Shown: positions 14,871 to 21,904, counted from the stretch's first letter. The stretch: DNA of 64,000 bases from the human T2T-CHM13v2.0 reference genome, Homo sapiens (GCF_009914755.1 NC_060930.1); one strand, 5' to 3'. A program made the numbers and translations. The notes: generated from the letters alone by a model not told the origin.

Positions 14871-17390
14871 TAATTCTAAGGATATTTGTCATTTCTAAGA
14901 AAACCTTCTTTTTCACACATCTAATTTTTGTTTTAAGTATGTCAGCATATATTTCTGATATTATTCATTTATTTATGTTAAATATTTATACTAACATTCT
15001 TCTAGTTTGGAGAGGGGTTCTAGTTTTTCTGTTAATTTTGGTGCTCTGTCTTGAGGATGTTGAGTTGTACTTGTCTATTGGTTTTTGTTACAAGCGATGG
15101 TGTTGAATTGCCAAATAGAAGAATACCTTTCCAAAACTTAAATGTTATTTACTACTGAAGTTCAGGTTAATGAACTTTCTGATTCTGAGAACTTGTCTTA
15201 GCAGATGAGGGTGAATGTTGGTTGTGCTGCCGGGATGGGTGTATGAGGTGCTGGCATTTTGAATCTGGGAGCTCCATGTTCTTACCTGAAACATTTTTAT
15301 TTCTTAGCCCCTAGTGACCACATCAATCACTTAAAGTGTAGCTAGATTGCAAGTCTTAGCTTGGAGAAAAATGAAAAGGGTAATTTCTCTCTTATTCTCC
15401 TCTTTTTTATTTTATTTTTTCCCTCTGCCTCCTTTATGAAGGGGAGTTTGCTGCGGCTTGACATGGCTTTTCTCAGCTTCCAACATTTACACCAAAAGCT
15501 CTTAATTTGGCTCAGTTCCTTTTGATTCCTCCCTCTCCCACTCAGACTCTTATTTTTCTCTTGGTGCTAAACCAGGATGAGGAGCAAGATCATGTCAATG
15601 TTGTTACAAGAGAGGATTAAGGGCCAAACCTATTTATTGGCCTTTGTATTGCAGAGTTTAGTTTTTATTGTACTCAGTTGTGGCTTCTATTTGTCAGACA
15701 CCTGTGCTTACAAGTGATAGAAGTCCAACTGAAATGGCTTTGGAAGAGAAAGAAAGAGAAAAAGAAAATATGGAGACTGAGGTAGGTCACAGAATATAAG
15801 AATGAGCAGCTGTAACAAGCACAGTTCCAGGGACCAGAGACTGGAATTAAATCTCTGCCCCAAAATAAATGAAGACCTTTGGAACTCTTATTTCAGCTGT
15901 TCTTTTGCACCTTCTCCCTTCTCTTAAATCTACTCCAAGAGGCAACAGACAAGTCTGTTGGCAGTTTTGGAGTCTCATTCATCACATCCATGAAAGCGAA
16001 GAAAAAGCAGCTGTGTTCAAAACCTAGGAGAGGCTCTTATTGGCCCAGCCCAGAGTACTTTATTACCATTTGAACCAATTGCTGCAGCCTTGTGGGTGCA
16101 GTGCCAAGTTGTCTGATTGGTCACTCCCATCATCCCAATGATTTTCAACCTACAGGTCATTACTCTTATCAATTTAGCACCTCTTATCAATTTAGCCACT
16201 ATGGTTTTTTAAACAAGATGGATGAGGCCCAAATAGAATGGAACAGATCATAGTGCATCCCACTTAGTAAGAGTCAGGATTATTTTGTGAAACTTTCGAT
16301 GCTGCAACACATGTGTTTACATATAAGCCTATATATTAGTATTGCAGCACACTTTAAAAATGTATATTTTTTACTCTAGGTCAGTCATACTCCAAAAGGG
16401 TTAAAATTCTTCTCTTTACTGCACGTTTTATGTATTTTATTTCTATTGATAATGCCTCTGATTCCCAGACATAATGCTTTTGGTTGGACTTTCAAAAAGG
16501 ACGGCCTAGAAGATAATTGTTCAACCATGTAATTGCTTCACTTTTCATTACCCTGTGGGTTTATTGGGCAGCTACATCTATTTCTCCTCTGGACTCCAAA
16601 GTCAAAGGTTGTGTTTTGTACGCATGCTTCTTTCTTTACTCTAGGTCAAACTCTATTCCACAGTCCAGTCTGGGAACTGACGTAAGCTTCTAGTTGTTAG
16701 ACAATGGTAGCCATCAAAGAAACTTAAGGTGATCTAAAGTTAGGTTTAATAAAAGTAAATTTTAGACTAACATCTGCCATATGTACAGATATTTATGAAA
16801 CCATCTAACCATCAGATTGCGCCAAATGTTCATTCCTAGCAGATGCAACACCATTCCAGAGACAGGATTTTGTTACCCTTAGAGTTAGTATCAGGCAAAA
16901 GGAAATCAATCTAAACCAATGCTTTGGACACAAGCTTATCTAGAAATGAAGCCTAGGGTATCCTCCATAAAACTACAGGTTACAGACCTTACTGAACTCT
17001 CCAGATCTGGACTCTGCAGAGTCCAGCTTTGGCAGAAATGTGGCTGATAGAGGCCATTACAGGAGCGTCCTTTGGCCTGTAACCCTCTTTTACATCAGCC
17101 TGGCTGACCACCCTAGAATGAGACCTCTTGGGAAAGCTGACAGCCCACAGAGTGATACCTTCAACCAATTGGCACATACATACCTCCCTATAGTAAAATA
17201 TCTAAAGGCTAAATACAATCTTAAACATGCCAAATAAAAAGCACTAAAGCATGTCCCTTAGGCTTGAAGAAATTAATCATCAGTTGACAAATTCATTATA
17301 ACTTGATGGCAAATAAAACAGCCCACATGAACAAAACTGTTTTATAAGTGCTTTTCTGGATACCACATAAAAATCTCTTTCACAAAATTA

Positions 17391-17591
17391 TTAGGTTAAT
17401 GCAAAAGTAATCGCGGTTTTTGCCATTAAAAGTAATGGCTTCCCACAACCAGATGTCCCATGCAAAGTAGTGCCCTCTAATGCCAAACCAAAAGCAGAGG
17501 TCATAAAGACTATATCCCTTACACACACACACACACGCGCGCGCGCGTTAAAATAATGGCAAAAACCGCGATTACTTTTGCACCAACCTAA
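17391..17591. mobile_element. MADE1 (Hsmar1-derived MITE) with a ~108-bp internal insertion
   Basis: TIRs TTAGGTTAATGCAAAAGTAATCGCGGTTTTTGCCATT and AATGGCAAAAACCGCGATTACTTTTGCACCAACCTAA; TA target duplication at 17389-17390 and 17592-17593. Confidence 0.93.
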
Positions 17592-17841
17592 TACAGCTTG
17601 CATTGAAATCCAGTGCTAAACTCAGCTTTCAGGAAACCAATGTGACATAATATTGGTAAAGAAAACAAAGTGGAGAGTATCAGGGTAATGAATGAAAGGA
17701 ATGGAGAGACTTTGTTGAAATACTCTTGGGCATTATCTGCCTATGCTTTTACTTGAACTCGTGGCTGGCTTTTGGTTTTACTTTTTCTTTCCCCTCGAAA
17801 AGTAGGTCATCTGCTCTGCTGGGCTTTATTATCTGGGGACG

Positions 17842-18214
17842 TTACTTGCCCTTGGCCTTGTGGTGGCTCTTGGTCTTCTGGGGCAGAAGCACGCCCTGAA
17901 TGTTGGGCAGGACACCGCCCTGCGCGATGGTGACTTCGCCCAGCAGCTTGTTAAGCTCCTCGCCGTTGCGAATGGCCAGCTACAGGTGGCGCAGGATGAT
18001 GCGGGTCTTCTTGTCGCGGGCCGGGTTGCCAGCCAGCTCCAGGATCTCGGCGGTCAGGTGCTCCAGCACGGCCGCCAGGTACACCTGCGCTCTGGCCCCG
18101 ACACGCTCGGCATAGATGCCTTTGCGGAGCAGACGGCGCTGGAGCCCGGCCAGGGAAGACCAAGTCTGGGACTTCAGCGCCAGCCTCGCCACCCTGCTTC
18201 CCACAACCAGATGT
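17842..18214 (-). pseudogene. H2AC3P: Histone H2A pseudogene, canonical replication-dependent type (likely H2AC3P/HIST1H2APS2)
   Basis: Start codon is ACA (ACA TCT GGT TGT GGG AAG = M-S-G-R-G-K position). Lesions: a +1 frameshift near codon 13, deletion of FPVGRV and of one N codon, and premature TAG at 17980-17982. Ends [21 protein letters not shown]. Still CpG-rich. Symbol is from recalled locus order. Confidence 0.93.
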
Positions 18215-18276
18215 CTCCTGCGAAGTAGCGCCCTCTAATGCCAAACCAAAAGCAGAGGTCATAAGTACTATATCCC

Positions 18277-18310
<34 letters not shown>

Positions 18311-18508
18311 CCCCTAACGGCTAACTTCTCTGGAAGGTGCCTCATCCAAGCAAAGCAGAACTGAAGATACTTTTACATGCCTTTTTCCGTTATTTTTTAT
18401 CCAATCAGACTTTTTCAGACTTCCTTTGAATACAAGTATCTGCAGGATTTTCCTTGTCACCTGTAGACACTTTTTCTCTTTTCAAGGAAGCTAGAAACAG
18501 ATTTTGAT

Positions 18509-18577
18509 ATGCCTAAAGTTTTGAAGTGTTCTACAATCTCTAGAAAGGGCTCCAAGAAAGCCATATGTAATATGCAT
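18509..18577 (+). pseudogene. H2B pseudogene 5' remnant (H2B-psi-A), divergent partner of the H2A pseudogene; possible C-terminal remnant at about 18795-18872
   Basis: MPKVLKCSTISRKGSKKAICNMH aligns gap-free to H2B [23 protein letters not shown]. ATG is 295 bp from the H2A start, with CCAAT at 18401-18405 in between. Confidence 0.75.
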
Positions 18578-18917
18578 TTTTTGTATAATTTGAGAATATT
18601 TATTTCCTCTATAGAGAGCAAGAAAATGAATGGGAAGTGGATGTATGAAAGTCATGTGTTATGTATTCATGGAAATTAATAAGTATATCATACATAGGTC
18701 AAGAAATGGGAGGACAAAGAGATAACTATATTCATGAGGCCTGAAATAAACAAGACACCTGGGCACAAGATACTTATGATATACTAAATATACAGCTAAC
18801 ACTAGATATCCAGGGTACACTGAAGGTTATACAAGCACCCAGTATTTTCAAGGCCTTGATTCAGCCACCTACTGGGGACACCCATTCTGTCACCATGTGT
18901 TCTCTGTTCAAGAAACA

Positions 18918-19444
18918 CACTACTATTCAGCCTTTAACAATAAGGAAGTCATGCTGTTTGTGAAAACATGGGTGAACCCAAGGAACATTAGGGTAAGCAA
19001 AAAACAAAACAAAACAACAACAACAACAAAAAAAACAGGCACAGAAATGCAAACACTACATCATCTCACTTGTATATGGAATCTAAGTATATCAAACTTA
19101 TAGAAGCAGAGAGGAGAACAGAGGTTACCAAACGTTACGGGTTGGGGAAATGTTGGTCAAAGCACACAAAATTTTAGTTAGACAGGAGGAATAAGTTCGG
19201 TTCAGGAGATCTATTGTAAAACATGGTGACTGTAATTAATACAATGTATTGTATACTTGAAAATTGCTATGAGAGTAGATTTTAAACGTTCTCACTACAA
19301 AAAGAAGCGTATGTGAGGTAATGGATAATTATCTTGATTTAGCTGTTCTACAGTGTATACATATATCAAAACATCATGTTGTACAACATAAATATATATA
19401 TATACAAGATTTATTTGTCAATTTAAAAAAAGAAATAAATAAAA
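18918..19444 (+). mobile_element. L1MA-type 3' end lying between H2B-psi-A and H2B-psi-B
   Basis: tactattcagcctttaacaataaggaagtcatg...aaattgctatgagagtagattttaa...A-rich tail. Confidence 0.8.
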
Positions 19445-19849
19445 CCCATGGCTGTTTAGCATGTCTTTCTCATAGAGCAAGTGTGTGTCATTATCCTCTC
19501 CTACGGCACTTCCTGTCTGTGGGATCCCTTGCTGGAATCTCAGTGCTAGTCCTTGTAATCATACCATTAGCTGGGAAAGTTAATGTGGCAGGGAAAGACA
19601 GGATGTTGGCACATTCTGTACTTCCAGGTCAGCACTATGGTCCTACCATCTTGCTTGCTCCCTATTCTAAGTATGTAAAATTATGCTATCTTTTTCCCTT
19701 GCTTCTTGCAGTGGATTTTAAATTTATTTAACCAACCATGTATATCTATCATCTTTATTTGGCCTGTGAGATTTTCTGTTCCATAGGTGGCCTGCCTCCT
19801 TATAGCAAACTTGGAAGCTCCATTGCATCAGAATATTTTCCAACAGGAT

Positions 19850-20212
19850 GCCAGGGTTAAGATCAAGAAAGACGAGAGAAATAGAAGTTCTGCTGCTCAG
19901 AGACTCTAAGTGAACAACTAGTAATCTTGTAGGATGTTGAAACAGATACACTGGCATCTGACCCAAGGCCATGTGAATCATAAATTCCTTTTGCAATGGC
20001 ATCCTCGAGTGGATCACTGGTAAGGCCTCCCATCTGGCCCATTGTAACAGATGATTGACCATACCTCCAGGCAGTTCAAAAGGCCAAATGCTTCCTACTG
20101 CCTGGGGTGCTGGCCAAGAACACTATTGGCCAATACCAAGTACACTAGCTGCCAGTGAGTTCCTTTTATCAGACTTGAACATCATATACCAAAGACAGTT
20201 TCAGAACTACCT
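19850..20212 (+). pseudogene. Decayed H2B pseudogene (H2B-psi-B), including a degenerate 3' stem-loop
   Basis: MLKQI..TGI*PKAM*IINSFCNGILEWITGKASHLAHCNR*LT..TSR..LLPGVLAKN..TKYTSCQ* (TGA 20156-20158) is collinear with H2B. AAAGACAGTTTCAGAACTACC at 20191-20211 resembles AAAGGCTCTTTTCAGAGCCACC. Confidence 0.88.
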
Positions 20213-21064
20213 TGGTTTTTAAAATTAGAGTTCTAGTTAATGTTTTTGCTAATAATCTATTGGTTGTGTTAGTAATTAATAATTCATGGATTGTGAATCA
20301 CCCAATCAAGTAGTACATTAACACAGCAGGAGGTGGGGGAGAAATTTTAAATTTCTCTCAACTTTAACATGTTTTCTTATGTGGTTTGCTTTCTTTAGTG
20401 GTTTGTTTTTAAGATTATAGAGTACTGTGTGCATGTGCTCTAATGTACCACTTATGAAGTGACAGCCTCTGTTCCTTTGCTTTTTCATTAAAGTCTTTAA
20501 ATATCATTTTGTGCTCTGTTTGAAGTTTAAATATCATCTTCATAATGTTCTCAACCTCTTATGGTATCTTGGTTTAATCTGTTTCCTAATTTGCTAGTCC
20601 AACTCCTTCTCCATAATTTTTAAAATAATTTTTCCAATTTACTAAGATTTTGAATCAGTCCTGGAGACACTGGTCCCTAAATCTAAGTGCCATGTTTTCC
20701 AGGATCACTTTTCTTTTCCAGGTCAGATAATTCCTGCTCAAGCTAGGGTTCACTCAAAAAGGCAGCTTCTGACGGCAGTTGATTGTAGGTGGCTGGATTT
20801 ATGACCCAAACTTGACCAGTGTCATTTTTCATAGACTTAGGTTGAGGAGGTTAGTTTCTCTCAAGTAGTTGAAGCTGAAACCTACAAAATTTAGGTGCTG
20901 TAGGAAGAATCTTTTCAAAGTACTCTTGGTACAGGCCACACTCGGGTACTAGGCTGTCTGGTGTTGCTTTCTGAGTGGTTCATGCCAAATATGAACACTA
21001 TTAAATCAGAGTGGAATTTGATCAGCTCATTTACATGCATTATTTAGTTTTCGTCCACTGAGAG

Positions 21065-21109
21065 ATTGGGTTGTCCCTATGCTTTCTTTGAATATGGCAA
21101 CTATAAATA
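21065..21109 (+). promoter_or_regulatory. Fossil H2B promoter: inverted CCAAT, octamer-like element, TATA box
   Basis: ATTGG 21065-21069; CTTTGAAT 21086-21093 (ATTTGCAT-like, 8 bp before TATA as in H2B promoters); TATAAATA 21102-21109. Confidence 0.6.
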
Positions 21110-21171
21110 ATTCCTACTTGGTACTGGCTGCCAGTCTTTTTATCCCTAAGTAGTGTGAGGCTGAATCTACT

Positions 21172-21583
21172 ATGCCTGGGTCTTCCTTTAAGTAGTTTGC
21201 TATTGCCATAATTGACTTTAAGAACATTGGTTTGCCATCTCCAAAAACAACTCAAAGAAACTTTTACCAAAACTCAGAAGATTAGCATGAGAGATGCCCT
21301 ACAGAGAACTACTCCATCTGCTTTAACAAGGTCTTGAAACAAGTGTGCTCCAACATGGGCATTTCATACAAGGCAACACGTTTTGAGAACTATTTTATCA
21401 AGGATATCGTCAAGCACACAGTAGGACAAGACTCTCTCTAGGCCCATTGTAACAGATACTGCACTATCGCCTCCAGAGAGAGCTAATGATCTGTGCACCT
21501 GCTCCTACCCAGGGAATTGATTAGGCATGCTATATCTGAGGACATCAAGGCCATTATTAACTACACCAATTCTATCCAAATAA
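21172..21583 (+). pseudogene. Full-length decayed H2B pseudogene (H2B-psi-C), TH2B-like N-tail
   Basis: From 21301: TENYSICFNKVLKQVCSNMGISYKATRFENYFIKDIVKHTVGQDSL*AHCNRYCTIASRES**SVHLLLPRELIRHAISEDIKAIINYTNS. This is gap-free and about 45/91 identical to canonical H2B by my count. ATG CCT at 21172. Confidence 0.92.
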
Positions 21584-21614
21584 GCTGCTGTTGAGGATTC
21601 AAAGAACATAAGAC

Positions 21615-21636
21615 AAAGGCTCTGTTCACAGCCATC
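21615..21636 (+). terminator. Histone 3' stem-loop remnant of H2B-psi-C
   Basis: AAAGGCTCTGTTCACAGCCATC; the 16-mer core matches GGCTCTTTTCAGAGCC at 14/16, 34 nt after the stop. Confidence 0.85.
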
Positions 21637-21904
21637 AACATTTTCTGTTAATAGCTACCTCTTAATGTATTCATATTTCTGATGGATAGCCCTTTGTATT
21701 ACCTCTTTGTGAATTGTTCAGGATCCTATATAATTGACTTAGTAAAACTTTTCTCCTTTCTACCTTAAATATTAAAAAGTAGGTCTATTTTGTTTATGAT
21801 TTTTCCTAATGAGGGATAGCACATGCTTGTATGTTTGTGTTTCAAAAAACATACTATGTGGCCAAAAATGGTCTCAGTTCACCACATGATTTAGTGAAGG
21901 CCCC

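What the first reader, a model, noticed from the sequence alone, without database searches (positions are those of the whole stretch)
21065..21660. H2B-psi-C: complete TH2B-like gene fossil with promoter, apparently duplicated N-tail motif and near-intact stem-loop
Seen: ATTGG, octamer-like CTTTGAAT and TATAAATA precede ATG CCT. The N-tail MPGSSFK*FAIAIIDFKN aligns position-for-position with TH2B MPEVSSKGATISKKGFKK, keeping the diagnostic I11 and F16 that canonical H2B lacks. A second out-of-frame AISKNNSKK..TKTQK follows, suggesting an internal tail duplication, then RC..E.Y. The 91-codon core is gap-free, and the stem-loop matches 14/16. Inference: an extinct H2B.1-like (germline-type) paralog, possibly with a lengthened tail.
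Basis: partly seen in the sequence, partly recalled or inferred. Interest (0 to 1): 0.72.

Follow-up and report, generated by a model that had tools for sequence, protein, structure and literature searches.

The report
Decayed TH2B-like H2B gene fossil
This is the long-dead human histone pseudogene H2BP5, whose N-terminal tail still carries the signature of the testis histone H2B.1 (TH2B); it is an evolutionary relic and not a working gene.

Summary
An H2B gene fossil runs from promoter remnants at about 21029 to a 14/16 histone stem-loop at 21618-21633. RefSeq already annotates its middle as H2BP5 (21240-21573). It is dead: five in-frame stops, a frame-shifting 35-nt tandem duplication, 1-nt and 10-nt deletions in the tail, a 4-nt insertion at the C-terminus, and a broken stem-loop pair.

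The H2B.1 (TH2B)-like reading is supported by the N-terminal tail and not by the core.
- H2BP5 has H2B.1-type residues at 7 of 13 diagnostic positions and canonical-type residues at 0-1.
- Simulated decay of canonical genes reached 7 in 1 of 2500 runs. A conservative 11-position test gave 6 of 2500.
- Protein placement puts it on the H2B.1 side with weight 0.94-1.0.
- Nucleotide phylogeny of the core is unresolved and open to composition bias.

The duplication is not a multiple of three, so a functional longer tail is not supported. The ATTGG is chance-level; the true CCAAT homologue is a decayed CCACT.

A second, unannotated H2B fossil lies at 18509-20158, beside H2AC3P. Its tail also reads TIS.

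No orthologues could be examined. This is an ordinary pseudogene of modest evolutionary interest.

The parts
21029..21036 (+). distal octamer-like ATTTACAT, at -143 from the ATG
   Evidence: The same 8-mer sits at -135 in H2BC2P (L023), and ATTTGCAT sits at -236 in H2BC1 (L024). It occurs 2 times on the + strand of the window.
21055..21059 (+). decayed CCAAT box (CCACT)
Evidence: In the pairwise alignment with fossil B it lines up with B's CCAATCAG at 18401-18408.
21086..21093 (+). proximal octamer-like CTTTGAAT, 8 nt upstream of the TATA box
   Evidence: Fossil B has the same 8-mer at 18424-18431. Intact genes L003 and L019 have ATTTGAAT at the same place.
21102..21109 (+). TATA box TATAAATA, at -70 from the ATG
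   Evidence: H2BC2P has TATAAA at -68.
21172..21285 (+). N-terminal tail region, 24 nt longer than that of H2BC1. It has stops at 21193-21195 and 21283-21285. The homologous reading shifts frame by +35, -1 and -10 nt.
21196..21230 (+). tail duplication unit 1 (reads FAIAIIDFKN; has F at position 16)
   Evidence: 22/35 identical to unit 2. It matches the H2BC1 template at 21/35 and six canonical genes at 14-16/35.
21231..21265 (+). tail duplication unit 2 (reads FAISKNNSKK in its own frame; has S at position 16)
   Evidence: 22/35 identical to H2BC1 and 16-19/35 to six canonical genes.
21286..21573 (+). histone-fold core, 96 codons without gaps, with stops at 21439-21441 and 21484-21489
   Evidence: 46-49% amino-acid identity to human H2B genes, E about 1e-18 to 1e-21.
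21574..21594 (+). C-terminal end with an apparent 4-nt insertion (reads IQISCC*). The original stop is seen as TAA at 21580-21582, out of frame.
   Evidence: The indel size was read by eye against TCCAAGTAA of the intact genes.
21613..21657 (+). 3' stem-loop remnant (16-mer at 21618-21633) and downstream flank
   Evidence: Rfam RF00032, 23.8 bits (gathering 34), one broken pair. 14/16 to the consensus and unique in the window.
18371..18431 (+). promoter remnants of a second, unannotated H2B fossil ('fossil B'): TTTTACAT, CCAAT (18401-18405) and CTTTGAAT (18424-18431)
   Evidence: It lies inside the RefSeq enhancer 18049-18569 listed in the hub's annotation.
18509..18565 (+). fossil B start and tail, MPKVLKCSTISRKGSKKAI
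   Evidence: tblastn E = 0.2 alone, but collinear with the core match. TIS matches H2B.1 positions 10-12.
18570..19925 (+). about 1.36 kb of foreign sequence interrupting fossil B; H2B codons about 20-44 are missing
   Evidence: Window positions about 19028-19444 are an interspersed repeat: 6147 first-look candidates in the genome, and 40 scored copies at 72-79% identity.
19931..20158 (+). fossil B core with stops, a frameshift and internal deletions, ending KYTSCQ*
   Evidence: tblastn E = 7e-8, 23/38 identical to canonical H2B.
20189..20211 (+). fossil B stem-loop remnant ccaaagacagtttcagaactacc
   Evidence: Read. Not detected by Rfam at E <= 10.
17742..18232 (-). H2AC3P, a canonical-type H2A pseudogene. 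By position it is the divergent partner of fossil B (277 nt between their starts), and it is much less decayed.
   Evidence: 81-87% nt identity to H2A genes; 79% aa identity to canonical H2A, 75% to H2A.1.

Best explanation
H2BP5 is a non-functional relic of an intronless, replication-dependent-style H2B gene. It was copied at the DNA level, with promoter and stem-loop retained and no poly(A) tail, into the stretch between SLC17A3 and SLC17A2. Its ancestor carried an H2B.1 (TH2B)-type N-terminal tail.

The gene was disabled by:
- a 35-nt tandem duplication in the tail that shifts the frame;
- 1-nt and 10-nt deletions;
- five in-frame stops;
- a 4-nt insertion at the C-terminus;
- decay of the CCAAT box, the octamer and the stem-loop.

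Shown: the anatomy, the lesions, and the H2B.1-type tail residues. Inferred: that the ancestor belonged to, or branched early from, the H2B.1 lineage, and that it died roughly around the eutherian radiation. It makes no histone today.
For: Anatomy and lesions.

Tail signature:
- Thirteen positions separate 43 eutherian H2B.1-type proteins from human canonical H2B. H2BP5 has H2B.1-type residues at 7 of them (S5, A10, I11, S12 or F16, T23, C34, I41) and canonical-type residues at 0-1.
- Simulated neutral decay of canonical genes to the same core identity gave 7 or more matches in 1 of 2500 runs. Decay of H2BC1 gave a mode of 7.
- With T23 and I41 left out, 5 or more of 11 arose in 6 of 2500 runs.
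- Both 35-nt units match H2BC1 and H2BC2P better (20-22/35) than six canonical genes (14-19/35).
- RC at positions 33-34 matches H2BC2P and the PDB chain 3x1t_D (titled only 'Histone H2B type 1-A'; that it is mouse is recalled), both with KRCRKESYSIYIYK. C34 is found in 23 of 43 H2B.1-type proteins.

Placement and tree:
- Protein placement (LG+G4; 19 H2B.1-type and 14 canonical rows) gave weight 0.94 on the H2B.1 side for the unit-2 path and 0.999 for the unit-1 path.
- The core nucleotide ML tree groups H2BP5 with H2BC1 and H2BC2P, with UFBoot 83 and 52.

Other:
- Fossil B nearby also reads TIS at positions 10-12. I11+S12 in two independent decays of canonical genes occurred in 0 of 2500 simulations.
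- Decay level: 40 of 172 invariant non-CpG sites are changed, against 6 of 174 in H2BC2P.
Against: - Branch-by-branch placement on core nucleotides does not discriminate. Weight on H2B.1 branches is 0.40, and the best placement outside them has dlnL -0.26 and pAU 0.67. The full-length nucleotide placements only put H2BP5 near the base of all the variants.
- H2BP5, H2BC1 and H2BC2P are the three lowest-GC rows, so composition may attract them.
- At 14 strict nucleotide sites shared by H2BC1 and H2BC2P, H2BP5 has the H2B.1 state at 4, the canonical state at 3-4, and neither at 6-7.
- Overall nucleotide identity does not favour H2B.1. In the tail it is 0.608 against 0.600; in the core it is 0.595 against 0.621.
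- Unit 2 and fossil B have the canonical S at position 16. All 61 H2B.1-type proteins fetched lack S there: 59 have F and 2 have L.
- Position 69 (K, codon AAG) is one change from the canonical N codons and two from the H2B.1 codons. Positions 43 and 62 are uninformative (read from the alignment).
- G8 is not matched.
- No H2A.1-type partner is present: H2AC3P is canonical-type.
- The flanks show no significant similarity to the H2BC1 or H2BC2P flanks.
- The diagnostic set and the 10% frequency threshold were chosen after seeing the data, and the mutation model is approximate.
Confidence: 0.68

Rival explanations
1. H2BP5 is an ancient canonical (replication-coupled) H2B pseudogene. Its resemblance to H2B.1 in the tail comes from retained ancestral states (T23, I41) plus chance substitutions during decay.
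For: - T23 and I41 are present in bird and frog H2B.
- Many H2B.1-type residues are one transition away from the canonical codons, so the simulated null has a mean of about 1.6 matches and reached 5-7 in 27 of 2500 runs.
- Core nucleotide placement cannot reject canonical positions.
- S16 in unit 2, K69 one step from N, the proximal octamer of the ATTTGAAT type seen in canonical genes L003 and L019, and the canonical-type H2A neighbour all lean this way.
Against: - Seven of 13 matches arose in 1 of 2500 simulated decays, and 5 of 11 in 6 of 2500.
- Canonical-type residues are retained at only 0-1 of the 13 positions. That was reached in 23 of 2500 null runs.
- I11 needs two specific substitutions, is present in both duplicated units, and also appears in fossil B.
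- Protein placement gives the canonical side a weight of 0.064 or 0.001.
Confidence: 0.2
2. H2BP5 is a mosaic. A canonical-type H2B gene had its 5' end overwritten by gene conversion from an H2B.1-type gene before it died.
For: - H2B.1-type states are confined to codons 5-34, while position 69 and the overall core identity lean canonical.
- Fossil B shows the same pattern: TIS in the tail, N69 in the core.
- Raman et al. 2022 report recurrent gene conversion among clustered H2B.W copies (passage seen).
Against: - H2B.1 itself differs from canonical H2B by only three conserved fold positions (passage), so a tail-only signal is what any H2B.1 relative would show after heavy decay.
- No breakpoint can be located in sequence this decayed.
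- S16 sits inside the supposedly converted stretch.
Confidence: 0.08
3. The locus still has a function as non-coding DNA or RNA, for example as a regulatory element or a transcribed pseudogene.
For: The neighbouring H2AC3P / fossil B promoter region is listed as a RefSeq enhancer (18049-18569, hub annotation). TATA and octamer-like motifs survive at H2BP5.
Against: - No functional element is listed over H2BP5 itself.
- Invariant non-CpG sites are changed at 23% and CpG-context sites at 42%, as expected for neutral decay.
- The CCAAT box and the stem-loop are both damaged.
Confidence: 0.03

Closest known systems
H2BC1 (H2B.1 / TH2B / HIST1H2BA), locus L024, about 158 kb telomeric on the same chromosome
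   Same: - Tail features: K at position 7 (the extra codon), I11, S12, T23, F16 in one unit, and an AGA/AGG-type codon at R33.
- Intronless gene with TATA box and stem-loop.
- Same chromosome arm, on the telomeric side of the main histone cluster.
   Different: - H2BP5 is dead, while H2BC1 is intact and paired with H2A.1.
- H2BP5 has no H2A.1 partner and carries a 35-nt duplication.
- It has C rather than T at position 34.
- It lacks a demonstrable match at fold positions 43, 62 and 69.
- The flanks are unrelated.
H2BC2P (formerly HIST1H2BPS1), locus L023, the known human H2B.1-type pseudogene
   Same: - Both are H2B.1-type pseudogenes with a tail frameshift.
- Both have KR-C at position 34.
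- Both have ATTTACAT upstream and TATAAA at -68/-70.
   Different: - H2BC2P is young: 6 of 174 invariant non-CpG sites are changed, against 40 of 172 in H2BP5.
- H2BC2P sits next to H2BC1 and has intact orthologues in other mammals (Seal et al. 2022, passage). No intact relative of H2BP5 is known.
Canonical replication-coupled H2B genes (H2BC3-H2BC21 and others; loci L003-L020)
   Same: - Gene architecture.
- Proximal octamer of the ATTTGAAT type, as in L003 and L019.
- Core identity of 46-49%.
- S16 in unit 2, and position 69 one change from N.
   Different: The canonical tail reads PAP where H2BP5 reads AIS, S where it has C34, and is one codon shorter before K.
Siamang H2B type 1-A-like protein P0077
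   Same: It carries an independent internal duplication in the same tail segment, GTTISKK GTTISKK. This shows that the segment is prone to tandem duplication.
   Different: In the siamang protein the duplication is in frame (7 residues) within an annotated ORF. In H2BP5 it is 35 nt and shifts the frame.

Membership tests
H2B.1 (TH2B) histone variant lineage | N-terminal tail signature relative to canonical H2B (extra residue before K7, T10-I11-S12, F16, E27, C/T34) | tested here: met
   - Seven of 13 diagnostic positions are H2B.1-type and 0-1 are canonical-type.
- The null of decayed canonical genes gave 1/2500, or 6/2500 in the conservative test.
- Not all features are met: G8 is absent, F16 is in one of the two units only, and E27 is deleted.
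H2B.1 (TH2B) histone variant lineage | The three conserved histone-fold differences from canonical H2B (Raman et al. 2022, passage). From these are taken to be positions 43 (I), 62 (S) and 69 (T/S). | tested here: inconclusive
   H2BP5 has F43, R62 and K69. Positions 43 and 62 are equally far from either type. The K69 codon is one change from canonical N and two from the H2B.1 codons (alignment).
H2B.1 (TH2B) histone variant lineage | Groups with H2B.1 in a full-length phylogeny | tested here: inconclusive
   Protein placement favours the H2B.1 side (weight 0.94-1.0, dlnL 2.5-6.7). Nucleotide placements do not reject other positions, and composition bias is possible.
H2B.1 (TH2B) histone variant lineage | Shared synteny: head-to-head with H2A.1 at the telomeric edge of the cluster, sharing a promoter | tested here: not met
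   H2BP5 lies between SLC17A3 and SLC17A2 (hub annotation), about 158 kb from H2BC1. No H2A fossil lies upstream of it. The only H2A in the window, H2AC3P, is canonical-type and is paired by position with fossil B.
H2B.1 (TH2B) histone variant lineage | Germline (testis, oocyte) expression | not testable with these tools
   No expression data were available.
Replication-dependent histone gene unit | Intronless CDS with an upstream TATA box and octamer and a 3' stem-loop in place of a poly(A) signal | tested here: met
   All the elements are present in the right order and spacing, but each is decayed.
Rfam RF00032 Histone3 stem-loop | Score at or above the gathering threshold (34 bits) | tested here: not met
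   23.8 bits, E = 0.0025 in 5.5 kb, with one of the six stem pairs broken and the first loop base changed. It is a remnant, not an intact element.

The most novel reading that the evidence does not exclude
H2BP5 and the unannotated fossil B may be relics of the stem of the H2B.1 lineage. On this reading, early eutherian copies scattered among the SLC17 genes had already gained the TIS / C34 tail but not yet F16 or the fold changes. They would then record an intermediate step in the origin of TH2B. They would also show that the now isolated H2A.1/H2B.1 pair was once linked to the main cluster by a chain of histone genes.
Probability: 0.22. Interest if true: 0.5.

Novelty: new member of a known kind. 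Interest (0 to 1): 0.33.

Why it matters
H2B.1 (TH2B) is the main testis H2B and, according to Raman et al. 2022, the only H2B variant never lost in mammals. That paper dates its origin to the eutherian ancestor, but the steps of that origin are not known.

A heavily decayed H2B.1-type fossil far outside the H2A.1/H2B.1 locus would add early, failed copies to that history. So would the second fossil, which has a mixed tail. Both give concrete sites to look at in other mammals.

For genome annotation, the result extends H2BP5 from 334 bp to a gene unit of about 630 bp and adds one unannotated H2B fossil. Nothing here suggests a present-day function, so the practical importance is small.

Tried and rejected
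- DNA search of the genome with the core found only itself. The translated search with X at the stops was needed to find relatives.
- Overall nucleotide identity to H2B.1 against canonical genes does not discriminate. Neither do the strict nucleotide sites: 4 H2B.1, 3-4 canonical, 6-7 neither.
- Promoter and 3' flank comparisons with 22 human H2B loci gave scores within the shuffle range, apart from the stem-loop. The H2BP5-to-fossil B flank scores were also not significant.
- I looked for evidence that fossil B and H2BP5 are sister copies. They share 4 derived non-CpG states (three of them adjacent, in AHCNR), while 21 and 18 states are unique to each. Sites changed in both numbered 6, against 4.1 expected if independent. 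Sisterhood is not established.
- Tandem Repeats Finder does not see the 35-nt duplication.
- I looked for a living H2B.1-like protein with S at position 16. None was found among the 61 H2B.1-type proteins fetched. The tail-restricted search returned only 54 eutherian type 1-A or 1-A-like entries.
- I considered relatedness to H2B.W and H2B.K. Core identity is 30-32% and 40%, against 45-49% for canonical H2B and H2B.1, and the tree does not join them. This was rejected.
- A processed retrocopy was rejected: promoter motifs and the stem-loop are retained and there is no poly(A) tract.
- A first protein placement run with all 43 rows and the AU test timed out. The smaller run has no AU test.

Full report
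**What is there**

The window is human chr6 (T2T), between SLC17A3 and SLC17A2. The frame-1 reading is MPGSSFK*FAIAIIDFKN...HERCPTENYSICFNKVLKQV.... The 16-mer ggctctgttcacagcc lies at 21618-21633.

The core (21286-21573) aligns to H2B without a gap over 95-96 codons at 46-49% identity. RefSeq annotates only 21240-21573 as H2BP5. The whole gene unit, from promoter remnants to stem-loop, spans about 21029-21657.

**Is it more than chance**

- The core match has E about 1e-18 to 1e-21.
- The stem-loop is the only site in 64 kb within two mismatches of the consensus. It is found by Rfam Histone3 at 23.8 bits, E = 0.0025. That is below the gathering score of 34, and one of the six pairs is broken.
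- TATAAA lies at -70 from the ATG, against -68 in H2BC2P. TATAAATA and CTTTGAAT each occur only 5-6 times per strand in the window.
- ATTGG occurs about once per kb. In the alignment with the neighbouring fossil, the CCAAT-box position is occupied by CCACT at 21055-21059.
- An additional octamer-like ATTTACAT lies at -143, as in H2BC2P at -135.

**The lesions**

- Frame 1 is formally continuous from the ATG to the core, but homology runs through three frames.
- MAFFT opens a 34-nt insertion in the tail. It corresponds to two adjacent 35-nt units, 21196-21230 and 21231-21265, that are 22/35 identical.
- That score at lag 35 is reached at 0.03% of window positions. Of 500 shuffles of the tail scanned over lags, 10 reached the observed best. 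Tandem Repeats Finder misses it.
- Each unit aligns to the same H2B.1 tail segment, codons 9-20. A 1-nt and a 10-nt deletion follow, so +35 -1 -10 = +24 nt restores frame 1.
- There are stops at 21193, 21283, 21439, 21484 and 21487.
- The C-terminus carries an apparent 4-nt insertion (read by eye).
- Because 35 is not a multiple of three, the duplication is a disabling lesion. It does not show that a longer tail was ever made.

**Canonical or H2B.1-type: nucleotide evidence**

A translated search of the window's own genome returned 30 H2B loci. They include H2BC1 (L024), the H2B.1-type pseudogene H2BC2P (L023; named from Seal et al. 2022, passage), 20 canonical-type genes, H2B.W and H2B.K.

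- A maximum-likelihood tree of the 288-nt core joins H2BP5 to H2BC1 and H2BC2P, with UFBoot 83 and 52.
- When H2BP5 is attached to each of the 49 backbone branches in turn, the H2B.1 branches hold only 0.40 of the likelihood weight. The best alternative is 0.26 log units worse, with pAU 0.67.
- Adding the tail only places H2BP5 near the base of the variants.
- The three grouped rows are also the three lowest in G+C.
- Overall identity and the 14 strict nucleotide sites (4 H2B.1, 3-4 canonical, 6-7 neither) do not decide either.
- The flanks carry no significant similarity to any human H2B locus beyond the stem-loop.

The nucleotide evidence from human paralogues alone is therefore inconclusive.

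**Canonical or H2B.1-type: protein evidence**

I fetched 43 eutherian proteins named H2B type 1-A or 1-A-like and found 15 positions at which they differ from human canonical H2B. Thirteen of these were usable.

- H2BP5 carries an H2B.1-type residue at 7 of the 13: S5, A10, I11, S12 (unit 2) or F16 (unit 1), T23, C34, I41. It carries a canonical-type residue at 0-1.
- I simulated neutral decay with CpG hypermutability, transition bias and G/C-to-A/T bias, run until core identity fell to 47%.
- From canonical genes, 7 or more matches arose in 1 of 2500 runs, and 1 or fewer canonical residues were retained in 23 of 2500. From H2BC1 the mode was 7.
- Bird and frog H2B also read KTQK and SYSIY, so T23 and I41 may be ancestral. 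Without them, H2BP5 has 5 of 11, which canonical decay reached in 6 of 2500 runs.
- Protein placement under LG+G4, with 19 H2B.1-type and 14 distinct canonical rows, puts 0.94 (unit-2 path) or 0.999 (unit-1 path) of the weight on the H2B.1 clade or its stem. No AU test was run there, because the larger run timed out.

Caveats: the diagnostic set and the threshold were fixed after seeing the data, the model is approximate, and the canonical rows are all human.

**What does not fit a crown H2B.1 gene**

- Unit 2 has S at position 16. All 61 H2B.1-type proteins seen lack S there: 59 have F and 2 have L.
- G8 is not matched.
- Of the three fold positions that Raman et al. 2022 give as the conserved differences (passage), positions 43 and 62 are uninformative. 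The K69 codon is closer to the canonical N codon.
- There is no H2A.1 partner.

The ancestor may therefore have been an early offshoot of the H2B.1 lineage or a conversion mosaic. This cannot be settled without orthologues, and none of the collections at hand holds mammalian genomes.

**Surroundings**

A sensitive tblastn of the window found a second H2B fossil on the + strand that is not in the annotation table.

- Its promoter remnants are CCAAT at 18401-18405 and CTTTGAAT at 18424-18431.
- Its ATG is at 18509 and its tail reads MPKVLKCSTISRKGSKKAI.
- About 1.36 kb of foreign sequence interrupts it, including an interspersed repeat.
- The core resumes at about 19931 and runs to a stop at 20156-20158. 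A stem-loop remnant lies at 20189-20211.
- Its tail also reads TIS, with S16 and N69. Its placement is ambiguous, with 0.43 of the weight on the H2B.1 side.
- It shares the string AHCNR with H2BP5, but shared derived states are not clearly in excess.
- It lies 277 nt from the start of H2AC3P on the opposite strand.

H2AC3P is canonical-type and far less decayed: 79% amino-acid identity to H2A against 75% to H2A.1, and 81-87% nucleotide identity to H2A genes.

**Age (inference)**

At sites invariant in 19 intact human H2B genes and outside CpG context, the fractions changed are:
- H2BP5: 40 of 172;
- fossil B: 20 of 133;
- H2BC2P: 6 of 174.

From general knowledge of human-lineage neutral divergence, recalled and not computed here, the H2BP5 value points to a death around or before the eutherian radiation. 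That is close to the origin of H2B.1 given by Raman et al. 2022 (section 7, read).

**Literature**

- Searches for H2BP5, for HIST1H2APS2/H2AC3P, and for combinations of TH2B, pseudogene, SLC17A2 and histone cluster found no paper that classifies this pseudogene.
- I read passages and section 7 of Raman et al. 2022. A search of its one held supplement gave no hit.
- I also read passages of Seal et al. 2022, of the 2026 H3.4 paper and of the 2019 histone catalogue preprint.

**Verdict**

H2BP5 is a real, complete but thoroughly dead histone H2B gene unit that is already annotated. An H2B.1-type origin is the best-supported reading (about two in three), resting on the tail alone. The idea of a functional lengthened tail is not supported. 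Novelty is limited to the classification, the wider gene boundaries and the extra fossil next door.

Noticed in passing
window 18371-20211 (+): An unannotated second H2B fossil with promoter remnants, ATG at 18509, tail MPKVLKCSTISRKGSKKAI, a 1.36-kb interruption, a decayed core and a stem-loop remnant. It sits head-to-head with H2AC3P, and its promoter falls inside the RefSeq enhancer 18049-18569.
   Followed up: partly
window 17742-18232 (-): H2AC3P is canonical-type and much less decayed (79% amino-acid identity to H2A) than either H2B fossil beside it (47% and about 60%). Its start codon reads ACA, it has an internal deletion and a stop, and a (GT)n run lies just upstream. The three fossils therefore died at different times, or H2AC3P was refreshed by gene conversion.
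   Followed up: partly
window 17389-17593 and 18196-18294: A 99-nt direct repeat (94% identical, 758 nt apart) holds the first bases of the H2A coding sequence, its 5' flank and a (CA)n run. Its second copy (17438-17536) lies downstream of H2AC3P, exactly between the two 40-nt arms of a 95%-complementary inverted repeat (17389-17428 and 17554-17593). From memory, that inverted repeat resembles a MADE1-type mariner MITE. It looks as if a promoter fragment was copied into the middle of the MITE.
   Followed up: no
window about 19028-19444: An interspersed repeat inside the interruption of fossil B. The genome search gave 6147 first-look candidates and scored 40 copies at 72-79% identity. The family was not identified.
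   Followed up: partly
protein P0077 (siamang H2B type 1-A-like): It carries an in-frame tandem duplication GTTISKK GTTISKK in the same tail segment that is duplicated in H2BP5.
   Followed up: no
proteins P0048, P0072, P0056, P0094, P0013, P0021, P0047, P0086, P0099: Several UniRef H2B entries from birds, frogs and mammals contain internal repeats of H2B segments and look like gene-model artefacts. Only their N-terminal parts were used.
   Followed up: no
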